A DNA stretch of 63,377 nucleotides, counting the filler, from Collodictyon triciliatum (Eukaryota): assembly GCA_043381765.1 (NCBI GenBank). It is 8 parts of 8 records of this genome, joined end to end, with 100 filler letters (N's around TTAATTAATTAA, not from the genome) between each part and the next. Parts side by side here need not be neighbours in the genome. Positions count along the whole stretch, not along the records: positions 9,833 to 19,553 come from JBHJMP010002912.1; 7 more parts are not named here. One strand, 5' to 3'. Positions 9,833 through 10,436 of this stretch are shown in pieces (within the stretch, counting starts at the first letter, position 1; each line of letters starts with the position of its first letter). The notes under the pieces were generated by a model. That model did not search any database, had not been told where the DNA came from, and saw nothing but the letters and a program-made list of their open reading frames with translations. A program made the translations under genes and the position numbers.

Positions 9833-10436
9833 ACTTTTGAAGAGAATCAGCAGTTTGAGACATCAAGAGTATCTTTAATCGATTTAGAGACAGAACTGAG
9901 TAAACATAATTCATGCACGGTCGATTATGAATAATTTCGAAAATATGTATATATGAAATCAAGGTACCAGATAGAATTTTCCAGATTTTATGAACAAGTG
10001 ACTTTTCGAAAGGTGAGATGGATTCAATATGTTAATAGAAAAAGAAGTGAACAATTGTTTATGGACCGAATCGAAAAGACATTTGGCAAGGATGTTGTAC
10101 TGGCGTATGGAGACTGGAACAGAAAATCTCAGATAAACCATTTTATGCCAACAATCGGAGGAGGATTACGAAAGATAGTATCCAAACATTTTGAACCAGT
10201 TAGTGTAAATGAATTTAGAACCTCCAAGATGTGCTGCGACTGCGAAAAGGAACCTGGAATATATGAAACTGAAAGGAAGTTCAAAAAAGATGTATAGATG
10301 TCTCATATGTAAAGAATGCAACCGCGCAGAAAGCAAGCAAACTGTATTCTTGACAAGGGACTTCAACAGCGCTAAAAATATACTCAACAAAGTTCTTTTA
10401 ATCCTTCGAGAAAAAAATACACCCTCCTTTCTCTAA
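9833..10436 (+). pseudogene. Fanzor1-type (TnpB/Cas12-family) RNA-guided endonuclease, C-terminal fragment with an in-frame stop and a frameshift
   Basis: Joined translation IDLETELSKHNSCTVDYE*FRKYVYMKSR...FRKVRW...RSEQLFMDRIEKTFGKDVVLAYGDWNRKSQINHFMPTIGGGLRK...VNEFRTSKMCCDCEKE/LEY...YRCLICKEC...TRDFNSAKNIL. This gives the GDW motif, RuvC-II Glu (10211), two CxxC pairs and RuvC-III Asp (10359). TAA at 9932-9934; +1 frameshift at ~10250-10253. Confidence 0.85.

What the first reader, a model, noticed from the sequence alone, without database searches (positions are those of the whole stretch)
9833..10436. Hidden Fanzor1-type RNA-guided nuclease split across two ORFs
Seen: the ORF track lists two unrelated short ORFs (9953-10297 and 10209-10436). 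Joining them at ~10250-10253 and reading through TAA 9932 gives an intronless ~200-aa sequence with ETELSKHNS.TVDY, YGDW, PTIGGGLRK, VNEFRTSK-CCDC, CLICKEC and RDFNSAKNI. Known: GxW, RuvC-II (xE.xTS), a split Zn finger and RuvC-III (RD.N.A.NI) in this order form the TnpB/Fanzor C-terminus, and the GDW motif is Fanzor1-like. From memory it most resembles giant-virus Fanzor1 proteins. Inference: this is a recently inactivated copy (two lesions, both visible catalytic residues intact), so this protist may carry an active Fanzor family elsewhere. RuvC-I and any transposase would lie beyond the contig start.
Basis: partly seen in the sequence, partly recalled or inferred. Interest (0 to 1): 0.85.

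Follow-up and report, generated by a model that had tools for sequence, protein, structure and literature searches.

The report
Broken Fanzor1 nuclease gene fragment
The flagged stretch is the broken last third of a Fanzor1 gene, a transposon-borne RNA-guided DNA cutter already known from protists and giant viruses, so it is real but an ordinary relic.

Summary
Window 9833-10436 reads, across one in-frame TAA (9932-9934) and one extra base (C at 10253/10254), as the C-terminal ~200 residues of a Fanzor1 nuclease. The piece alone matches only the three solved Fanzor1 proteins at significant E-values (2.8e-7 to 4.3e-5). It is 62.5% identical to an intact 648-aa metagenome protein, P0003. A profile of seven full-length relatives hits the same three Fanzor1 chains at E 2e-48 to 6e-40 and nothing else, and a model of P0003 has the Fanzor1 fold.

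The copy is dead. It has a stop, one frameshift, probably a second frameshift near 10404-10428, 3 of 42 family-invariant residues replaced, and a long branch.

It is the first 693 bases of a scaffold, tied to intron-bearing host genes only through a 652-N gap. Its clade is separate from a large giant-virus clade and was not found in IMG/VR. Public runs hold many related copies, most without the stop.

An 11-bp hairpin (10442-10468) after the frame-B stop is a candidate omega-RNA stem. The giant-virus sister clade has a covarying RNA structure in the same place.

Verdict: new member of a known kind, low to moderate interest.

The parts
9833..9931 (+). Frame A, first part: linker region and the start of the helical segment before RuvC-II (TFEENQQFETSRVSLIDLETELSKHNSCTVDYE). 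The contig starts at 9833.
   Evidence: 85% identical over residues 1-54 to P0115, which continues upstream.
9932..9934 (+). Lesion 1: in-frame TAA where kin have Lys or Arg (AAA in most related copies).
   Evidence: In read laying, A replaces T at 9932 in 7 contigs of X2 (depth 55 of 99.7), 1 of X3 (7.11 of 9.63) and 9 of X4 (65.3 of 83.5). P0115 has K here.
9935..10252 (+). Frame A, second part. Holds the Fanzor-type RuvC-II region: YGDW (10106-10117, Gly at the canonical Glu place), the shifted catalytic Glu in VNEFRTSK (Glu codon 10211-10213), and the first CxxC of the zinc finger (10232-10243).
   Evidence: The Glu aligns with the Glu of 'LDEYKTS' of SpuFz1 and 'IDEFRTS' of PpFz1.
10253..10253 (+). 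Lesion 2: one extra base (one C of 'gaacctgg') shifts the frame by +1.
   Evidence: Loose ends and one-base-shorter contigs in X2 and X4 read '...GAAAAAGAA|CTGGAATATATG'.
10254..10436 (+). Frame B: second half of the zinc finger (CLICKEC 10299-10319), RuvC-III (RDFNSAKNI 10356-10382, Asp codon 10359-10361), then a premature TAA at 10434-10436.
10404..10428 (+). Probable lesion 3: a further +1 frame change somewhere in this stretch, which holds an A7 run. Its exact place is not fixed.
   Evidence: The third frame 10426-10491 reads PFSKKQAVGSFLAAFITTRPL*, matching the tails of P0003, P0010, P0011 and P0164 ('LFKKQAVG...'). Copies differ by indels at 10408, 10424 and 10432-10434.
10442..10468 (+). 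11-bp hairpin (8 Watson-Crick and 3 G-U pairs, 5-nt loop). Candidate omega-RNA stem that overlaps the end of the ancestral ORF.
   Evidence: Fold of 10300-10495: z -2.66, 4 of 200 shuffles as good. It lies in bins 10433-10480, which have high depth in X2 (301-376). None of the 40 listed differences falls within 10424-10471, but 135 further differences were not shown. No covariation test was possible on this clade.
10489..10491 (+). TGA that ends the third-frame tail. Near the likely right end of the repeated element.
   Evidence: X2 depth falls from 300 (10457-10480) to 32 (10481-10504) to 9 (10505-10526), and one X2 contig runs on unlike after 10491.
10526..11177 (.). 652-N scaffold gap. It is the only link between the Fanzor fragment and the rest of the scaffold (Kelch and kinase exons, 11178-19553).

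Best explanation
Window 9833-10491 is the 3' third of a Fanzor1 gene, cut off at its 5' side by the start of a scaffold and no longer able to make protein. Fanzor1 is the eukaryotic and giant-virus branch of the TnpB/Cas12 RuvC nucleases. It rides in DNA transposons and, loaded with an omega-RNA transcribed from the 3' end of its own gene and the transposon's right end, cuts DNA that matches the guide. That function is established for SpuFz1 and GtFz1; it is inferred here.

Shown here:
- Family membership of the fragment.
- The intact shifted Glu, zinc finger and RuvC-III Asp.
- One stop, one frameshift and probably a second frameshift.
- Three replaced invariant residues.
- Membership of a multicopy family whose other copies mostly lack the stop.

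Inferred:
- It is a dead copy of a transposon family living in the eukaryotic host genome.
- The hairpin at 10442-10468 belonged to its omega-RNA.
- The element ended near 10490.
For: - Sequence: the frame-A piece hits only Fanzor1 among solved structures at significant E. It is 62.5% and 69.5% identical to intact P0003.
- Profile: seven full-length kin hit three Fanzor1 chains, E 2e-48 to 6.4e-40, and nothing else at E<=1.
- Fold: ranks 1-7 of the Foldseek search with the P0003 model are all Fanzor1, E 5.5e-22 to 3.4e-18. The next hit is a Cas12f at 4.3e-5.
- Signature: the C-terminal part of the published Fanzor1 pattern is met in the read-through. The whole pattern is met in 7 of 7 full-length kin and 80 of 82 viral ORFs (pattern from passages of 10.1101/2023.08.09.552727).
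- Decay: the TAA and the extra C are absent from kin. The third-frame tail matches kin. 39 of 42 invariant columns are kept, against 33 of 33 in two intact fragments. The end branch is 0.47 against 0.08-0.14.
- Multicopy: 128, 75, 10 and 1 contigs laid from X2, X4, X3 and X1 at 80-100% likeness. Decayed kin P0115 and P0048 sit on short NCBI contigs.
- Not of a catalogued virus: the best identity in IMG/VR is 50-51%, and the clade is separate with 100% SH-aLRT.
- Omega-RNA model: the window hairpin, and a covarying structure at the same place in the viral sister clade. There, 97.5% of cells pair against at most 62.2% when slid, 62 double changes against at most 20, and 0 of 500 shuffles reach the observed value.
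Against: - The organism's own reads and genome could not be examined (no run held half of the words or more). The stop and the indels could therefore be assembly errors; the second candidate frameshift lies at an A7 run.
- A second in-frame TAA in an otherwise open 1,629-codon ORF (32842-32844) hints at base errors or an odd reading of TAA.
- Host linkage rests on a 652-N gap only. GC content (0.369 against 0.348) does not discriminate.
- Pfam gave only a sub-threshold PF07282 hit for the fragment (E 0.045, 14.4 bits against a cut-off of 26.3).
- The frame-B piece alone found no Fanzor in the PDB.
- No RNA or covariation evidence exists for the window's own hairpin. The P0003 model is of middling confidence (pLDDT 69.5).
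- The tree used the quick search, and the window row fills only 30% of its columns.
Confidence: 0.8

Rival explanations
1. The gene is intact in the organism. The TAA, the extra C and the tail frameshift are sequencing or assembly errors at the ragged start of a low-quality scaffold.
For: - The piece is the first 693 bp of a scaffold next to a 652-N gap.
- The tail shift lies at an A7 run.
- Another lone in-frame TAA interrupts a long ORF at 32842.
- An X3 contig differing at 2 of 131 bases reads A at 9932.
- The catalytic Glu, the Asp and all four zinc-finger Cys are kept.
Against: - Three family-invariant residues are replaced (R492I, S524N, M529I), which indel errors do not explain. Two intact fragments keep 33 of 33.
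- The end branch is three to six times longer than those of its kin.
- The nearest kin on short NCBI contigs are themselves decayed.
Confidence: 0.12
2. The piece does not belong to the host chromosome. It comes from a co-sequenced giant virus or another organism, or from an integrated giant-virus segment, and was scaffolded onto host genes by mistake.
For: - The family's largest intact set is in giant-virus MAG contigs: 240 of 431 pattern matches were relatives, and 82 intact ORFs lie in the 80 loci kept.
- The link to the host is only a gap of Ns.
- Related sequence turns up in freshwater metagenomes of 16 studies.
Against: - No IMG/VR contig exceeds 50-51% identity to the window or to P0010.
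- The window clade is cleanly separate from the viral clade.
- The viral copies examined are all intact, while this copy and its nearest kin are decayed and highly multicopy within single runs, as in a cellular transposon graveyard.
Confidence: 0.1
3. TAA is read as an amino acid in this organism, so the TAA at 9932 is not a lesion.
For: The TAA at 32842-32844 sits exactly where paralogous repeats of the same protein have Gln ('CPQGTW' against 'CP*GTW').
Against: - ORFs of 940, 688 and 620 codons have no internal TAA or TAG in an AT-rich genome.
- Only 1 of the 8 listed same-frame ORF pairs is a convincing read-through case.
- Kin have Lys or Arg, not Gln, at the 9932 site, and most copies read AAA.
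- The frameshifts would remain in any case.
Confidence: 0.03

Closest known systems
SpuFz1, Fanzor1 of Spizellomyces punctatus (PDB 8GKH, 9CEU-9CEZ; PMC10432273 and PMC11423790, passages read)
   Same: - The kin profile aligns over profile positions 4-609 of 635 (E 3.8e-46).
- The fragment itself aligns over residues 19-151 (E 3.2e-6).
- It shares GDW at the old RuvC-II place, a shifted Glu in xE(Y/F)xTS, a CxxC...CxxC finger and an RD RuvC-III motif.
- The P0003 model superposes at TMq 0.59-0.62. Size is similar: 648 aa for P0003.
   Different: - Identity is only about 18-19% in the structural alignments.
- The window copy is truncated and broken.
- No omega-RNA, TAM or cleavage data exist for this clade.
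- My placing of the window's Glu on E541 rests on a chain offset that I inferred (935 minus 394), not on a printed numbering.
PpFz1 (Parasitella parasitica, PDB 9CF0-9CF3) and GtFz1 (Guillardia theta, PDB 9CER-9CET)
   Same: They are the best and third-best sequence hits of the fragment (E 2.8e-7 and 4.3e-5) and of the profile (2e-48 and 6.4e-40). The GtFz1 omega-RNA overlaps 17 C-terminal codons (PMC10432273 passage), as the hairpin here overlaps the ancestral ORF tail.
   Different: PpFz1 carries a large insertion between the two matched stretches (chain 984 to 1096). GtFz1 has Asn in the triad (PMC11423790 passage). The window clade has neither.
Compact Fanzor1 ORFs of giant-virus MAG contigs in IMG/VR (loci L001-L080)
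   Same: They are the nearest large set of intact relatives. ORFs are 555-637 aa, 38-47% identical to P0003 and 40-51% to the window piece. They share the motif set, a basic N-terminus and a structured RNA at the ORF's 3' end.
   Different: - They form a separate clade with a long stem, 1.65 changes per column.
- Their conserved 3' end has no sequence likeness to the window's: blastn found nothing beyond fragment base 552, which is window 10384.
- All examined copies are intact, and several contigs hold more than one copy.
Fanzor1 elements of Bao and Jurka 2013 (PMC3627910, passages read), and the solo-Fanzor non-autonomous element of Spodoptera frugiperda ascovirus (10.1101/2023.08.09.552727, passages read)
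   Same: The defining motif [TS][TS]-x-x-C4 finger-x(5,50)-RD, plus the two extra conserved Fanzor1 residues (a Gly and a Glu), are all present here. Elements that carry only a Fanzor1 ORF are described.
   Different: The transposon superfamily, TIRs and TSD of the window element cannot be seen, because the left end is missing and the right end is only inferred.
Fanzor2 and TnpB (ApmFz2 PDB 9B0L; ISDra2 TnpB PDB 8H1J)
   Same: Same RuvC and zinc-finger core, and the same RNA-guided principle.
   Different: There is no sequence hit at E<=1 with the profile. Foldseek gives E 1.5e-3 with TMq 0.17 for ApmFz2 and E 1.3e-3 with TMq 0.16 for TnpB. It is not a member.

Membership tests
Fanzor1 | TnpB/Fanzor C-terminal constellation: [TS][TS]-x-x-C4 zinc finger-x(5,50)-RD (Bao and Jurka 2013). 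Refined as E-x6-[CH]-xx-C-x(10,65)-C-x(5,50)-RD-x5-N (Yoon et al. 2023). | tested here: met
   The regex matches residues 127-183 of the read-through (X at both breaks). It also matches P0003-P0011.
Fanzor1 | Non-acidic residue (Gly or Pro) at the canonical RuvC-II Glu place, and a conserved Glu shifted downstream. | tested here: met
   YGDW at 10106-10117, with the Glu of NEF 34 residues after the Gly. The Glu aligns with the Glu of SpuFz1 'LDEYKTS' and PpFz1 'IDEFRTS'. The rule is from PMC10530073. The SpuFz1 triad D383/E541/D606 is from PMC11423790.
Fanzor1 | RuvC-I Asp in a DPG motif, 120-280 residues before the Glu. | not testable with these tools
   It lies beyond the contig start at 9833. 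It is present in 7 of 7 full-length kin and in the 80 of 82 viral ORFs that match the whole pattern.
Fanzor1 | Significant sequence similarity to proven Fanzor1 proteins, closer than to Fanzor2, TnpB or Cas12. | tested here: met
   Fragment: 3 Fanzor1 hits at E 2.8e-7 to 4.3e-5; the only other row has E 1.2. Kin profile: 3 hits, all Fanzor1, E 2e-48 to 6.4e-40.
Fanzor1 | Fanzor1 fold (enlarged REC lobe plus WED, RuvC and TNB). | tested here: met
   Tested on the intact relative P0003, not on the fragment. AF2 gave pLDDT 69.5 and pTM 0.58. Foldseek ranks 1-7 are all Fanzor1 with TMq 0.54-0.62, and the rest have TMq 0.30 or less.
Fanzor1 | Cognate omega-RNA encoded at the 3' end of the ORF and the transposon right end. 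| tested here: inconclusive
   The window has a hairpin at 10442-10468 and a fold z of -2.66, with high depth among copies up to about 10480, but no covariation or RNA data. The viral sister clade has a covarying structure: 24 pairs, 7 of them with compensatory changes, and 0 of 500 shuffles reach the score.
Fanzor1 | Carried inside a DNA transposon with defined ends (TIR and TSD). | not testable with these tools
   The left end is missing (contig start). The right end is inferred only from the fall of depth after about 10480-10491.
Fanzor1 (functional gene) | Uninterrupted reading frame. | tested here: not met
   TAA at 9932-9934, +1 shift at 10253, and a probable further shift in 10404-10428.
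Fanzor2 / IS607-type TnpB | Closer likeness to Fanzor2 or TnpB than to Fanzor1. | tested here: not met
   No Fanzor2 or TnpB chain at E<=1. ApmFz2 has TMq 0.17 and TnpB 0.16.

The most novel reading that the evidence does not exclude
The window copy is the dead tip of a distinct, compact (about 650 aa) Fanzor1 lineage. This lineage lives as a high-copy transposon in a freshwater protist genome and is not found in catalogued giant viruses. It still has intact members (P0003 and P0163 at 648 aa; the open 331-aa P0164, which holds RuvC-I, on an NCBI contig). It would use an omega-RNA whose terminal hairpin is written inside the last codons of the gene ('KKQAVG...'). As sister to the abundant giant-virus clade, it would mark a host-virus exchange of RNA-guided nucleases and offer a new small editor scaffold.
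Probability: 0.3. Interest if true: 0.45.

Novelty: new member of a known kind. Interest (0 to 1): 0.27.

Why it matters
Fanzor1 nucleases are the eukaryotic RNA-guided DNA cutters and are being developed as small genome editors. Their presence in protists and giant viruses has been in print since 2013 and 2023 (PMC3627910, PMC10432273, PMC10530073; passages read). A decayed fragment adds no new principle.

It has two uses:
- It is an annotation correction: two 'unrelated short ORFs' are one broken transposon gene.
- It points to a separate compact clade with intact members elsewhere, next to a very large giant-virus clade. The C-terminal region finds 742 cluster representatives at E<=1e-10.

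My two literature searches were not aimed at this subclade, so I cannot say whether it is already in print. The 'Fanzor1' plus 'Nucleocytoviricota' search returned 0 papers. Supplementary tables of the 2023 surveys, which I could not open, may already list it.

Tried and rejected
- Own-genome search: no genome is held for this window, so intact copies in the same organism could not be sought.
- Sequencing runs: no run holds half of the words or more, and no RNA holder is listed. Only Logan contigs could be laid, so the source reads at the lesions were not seen.
- Pfam: the fragment gave only PF07282 below its cut-off, and frame B gave nothing. P0003, P0004 and P0006 gave no family at E<=0.01 in the local Pfam copy, although the protein index lists a precomputed PF26935 for them. 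I could not see what PF26935 is.
- Frame B alone against the PDB: only zinc-finger noise, E 0.96 or worse.
- Naming the organism: the Atlas search with the neighbouring ABC-transporter piece returned only generic bacterial ABC_membrane clusters. That piece is a different contig anyway.
- Metagenome scan for DNA of the window's own clade: 167 relatives, but the 80 kept are all 37-47% identical, so no close kin DNA was obtained.
- IMG/VR with P0010: 172 relatives, none above 50%.
- A 15-base exact search of the hairpin arm in IMG/VR: 59 matches, none with a Fanzor next to it (0 tblastn hits; 1 locus with 20 of 27 likeness). These are chance matches.
- Rfam on 9833-10525: 0 matches at E<=1.
- TAA as a sense codon: rejected as a general rule.
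- Other Fanzor pieces in the window: none. The P0006 hit at 46729-46821 (E 0.01) lies in an 'HTYI' microsatellite.
- Earlier scan notes: none for this genome or by sequence.

Full report
**What is in the sequence**

The window is not one molecule. It is eight pieces joined by N44-TTAATTAATTAA-N44 linkers. Piece 2 runs from 9833 to 19553 and has an inner gap of 652 N at 10526-11177. The finding is the first 693 bases of that piece. The GC-rich ABC-transporter gene just upstream belongs to another piece and says nothing about context.

Frame A (9833-10297) is open except for a TAA at 9932-9934. Frame B (10209-10436) carries on the same protein after one surplus base at 10253/10254.

**Is it more than chance?**

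- phmmer of the frame-A piece against all PDB chains returned four rows at E<=10. Three are Fanzor1: Parasitella 2.8e-7, Spizellomyces 3.2e-6, Guillardia 4.3e-5. The fourth, at E 1.2, is noise.
- Frame B alone found nothing meaningful.
- Pfam gave only a sub-threshold PF07282 match.
- A word-indexed search of 5.8 billion proteins found seven longer relatives of 610-648 aa. The best, P0003, had E 1.4e-57 and 63% identity. It also found two shorter ones at 65-67%.
- tblastn of P0003 on the window gave 62.5% over 152 aa and 69.5% over 59 aa, in the two frames and in the right order. There was no other credible match in the 63 kb.

**What family?**

- A profile of the seven full-length relatives hit three distinct PDB sequences at E<=1, all Fanzor1, at 2e-48, 3.8e-46 and 6.4e-40. 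The Spizellomyces match spans profile positions 4-609 of 635.
- An AlphaFold2 model of P0003, built on a 43-row alignment (pLDDT 69.5, pTM 0.58), gave Foldseek ranks 1-7 all Fanzor1 (E 5.5e-22 to 3.4e-18, TMq 0.54-0.62). The next hit is a Cas12f at 4.3e-5. ApmFz2 comes at 1.5e-3 with TMq 0.17 and TnpB at 1.3e-3 with TMq 0.16.
- The published Fanzor1 pattern is DPG-x(120,280)-E-x6-[CH]-xx-C-...-C-...-RD-x5-N (passage of 10.1101/2023.08.09.552727). It is met in full by 7 of 7 full-length relatives and 80 of 82 viral ORFs. The window read-through meets it from the Glu onward.
- The Gly of YGDW stands where canonical TnpB has its RuvC-II Glu. The Glu of VNEFRTSK, 34 residues on, aligns with the Glu of 'LDEYKTS' in SpuFz1. 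This is the 'rearranged' site described in PMC10530073. By my inferred chain offset it is E541 of the SpuFz1 triad D383/E541/D606 (PMC11423790).
- RuvC-I ('VDPGK', D364 of P0003) lies about 65 residues before the first aligned residue, so about 200 bp beyond the contig start.

**Is it alive?**

No.

1. The TAA at 9932 stands where relatives have Lys or Arg. In Logan contigs of three runs, most related copies read A there: X2, 7 contigs, depth 55 of 99.7; X3, 7.11 of 9.63; X4, 9 contigs, 65.3 of 83.5. One of these is an X3 contig that differs from the window at only 2 of 131 bases. The 85%-identical fragment P0115 has Lys.
2. The frame change at 10253 is one extra C. Relatives read C-x-x-x-L-E-Y with the same spacing. 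Loose ends and one-base-shorter contigs in X2 and X4 read '...GAAAAAGAA|CTGGAATATATG'. I could not tell what share of copies share the extra base.
3. The kin's C-terminal tail ('LFKKQAVG...') is found in a third frame, 10426-10491. A further +1 shift somewhere in 10404-10428, which holds an A7 run, is therefore needed.
4. Of 42 columns that are invariant in 43 intact family members and covered by the fragment, 39 are kept and three are replaced (R492I, S524N, M529I). Two intact partial relatives keep 33 of 33. The nearest kin on short NCBI contigs (P0115, P0048), and also P0012 and P0054, carry such replacements too.
5. In a quick IQ-TREE tree of 92 rows, the window's end branch is 0.47 changes per column, against 0.08-0.14 for its three clade mates.

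The stop may be young, but the copy has drifted. All frame lesions could still be assembly errors, since the source reads were not available. The three replaced invariant residues argue against that as the whole story.

**Whose is it?**

- The family's largest intact reservoir is giant viruses. An IMG/VR scan gave 431 pattern matches, of which 240 were relatives. The 80 loci kept, many named GVMAG and on contigs up to 289 kb, hold 82 open ORFs of 555-637 aa.
- The window piece is only 40-51% identical to them.
- A second IMG/VR scan with the close relative P0010 found 172 relatives, none above 50%.
- In the tree, the window groups with P0003, P0010 and P0011 (SH-aLRT 100). That group is separated by a stem of 1.65 from the other 88 rows, which are 82 viral ORFs and six metagenome proteins. 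The root is not known, so 'sister' means 'separate', not a direction of transfer.
- Related sequence is strongly multicopy within single runs: 128 contigs in X2 and 75 in X4, at 80-100% likeness. Several kin are visibly decayed.

This is the picture of a cellular transposon family rather than of a virus. The rest of piece 2 carries Kelch and TKL-type kinase exons split by short gaps, which is eukaryotic, but the link to them is a run of Ns. I put host residence at roughly 0.85-0.9 and a viral or foreign origin at about 0.1.

**How it would have worked**

Fanzor1 proteins bind an omega-RNA transcribed from the 3' end of their gene through the transposon's right end, and cut DNA matching the guide next to a TAM. 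This was shown for SpuFz1 and GtFz1, and the GtFz1 RNA overlaps 17 codons (PMC10432273).

In the window, 10300-10495 folds better than shuffles (z -2.66). It holds an 11-bp hairpin at 10442-10468 whose 5' arm encodes the conserved 'KQAVG' of the kin. Depth of related contigs in X2 stays at 301-376 over 10433-10480 and drops to 32 and then 9 beyond. The third-frame stop is at 10489-10491, and one contig diverges after 10491. That suggests an element end near 10490.

I had no DNA of the window's own clade to test covariation. In the giant-virus clade, conservation runs about 60-70 nt past the stop and about 60-80 nt before the start. A consensus structure over the ORF's end and the 3' tail has 24 pairs. 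Of their cells, 97.5% pair, against at most 62.2% when the 3' partner is slid. There are 62 double-change cells against at most 20, and 0 of 500 shuffles reach the observed score. So the omega-RNA arrangement holds in the nearest large clade. For the window it is an inference.

**Comparison and novelty**

Fanzor1 in protists and giant viruses is in print (PMC3627910, PMC10432273, PMC10530073, 10.1101/2023.08.09.552727; passages read). The C-terminal region of the fragment finds 1,778 cluster representatives at E<=1e-3 and 742 at E<=1e-10 among 1.84 billion. Earlier notes of this scan describe similar giant-virus Fanzor1 elements and one decayed fragment; I did not re-test them. This is a new, dead member of a known kind.

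Noticed in passing
window 9733-9832, 19554-19653, 25540-25639, 35349-35448, 45155-45254, 54960-55059, 61177-61276: The window is a chain of eight separate pieces joined by N44-TTAATTAATTAA-N44 linkers. Neighbourhood across these joints has no meaning.
   Followed up: yes
window 32842-32844 (ORFs 30022-32844 and 32845-34911, same frame): A single in-frame TAA interrupts a 1,629-codon ORF made of WD40 and Ephrin_rec_like (cysteine-rich) repeats, exactly where paralogous repeats read Gln ('CPQGTW' against 'CP*GTW'). 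It could be a CAA-to-TAA change, a base error or a rare read-through. It was the only convincing case among the 8 listed same-frame ORF pairs.
   Followed up: partly
loci L001-L080 (IMG/VR giant-virus contigs): All 80 loci hold open Fanzor1 ORFs (82 in all, 555-637 aa), and several contigs hold two or three copies. Conservation covers only about 60-80 nt before the start and 60-70 nt after the stop, ending in '...AAAGGTGTAAA'. This suggests roughly 2-kb elements that carry nothing but the Fanzor gene.
   Followed up: partly
alignment A5, columns 245-279 (for example L010:9391-9611, L011:11727-11947, L062:8030-8250): Around the stop codon of the viral ORFs, a small hairpin ('GTAGG...CCTAC') is present in most copies. 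It is cleanly absent in some (L011, L020, L028, L031, L034, L044, L050, L066). In L062 and L075 it is replaced by a longer, different self-complementary insert.
   Followed up: no
proteins P0115, P0048 (NCBI, contigs of 629 and 513 bp), P0164 (NCBI, contig 2429 bp): The nearest kin of the window copy (85% and 74% identity) sit on very short contigs of NCBI assemblies and are themselves decayed. A 331-aa open copy with RuvC-I also exists on an NCBI contig. Whether any of these is the window's own genome is unknown.
   Followed up: partly
window 8001-9600 and 21001-23000: GC-rich islands (0.55-0.57) lie within otherwise AT-rich pieces (about 0.33). The first island holds an ABC_membrane-type transporter exon flanked by microsatellites.
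   Followed up: no
window, many places (for example 1-100, 8960-9030, 12650-12760, 13055-13210, 41100-41300, 57900-58200): There are very many long microsatellites, seen as runs of L, I, DY, FS/LS, VF and KR/ER in the ORF translations.
   Followed up: no
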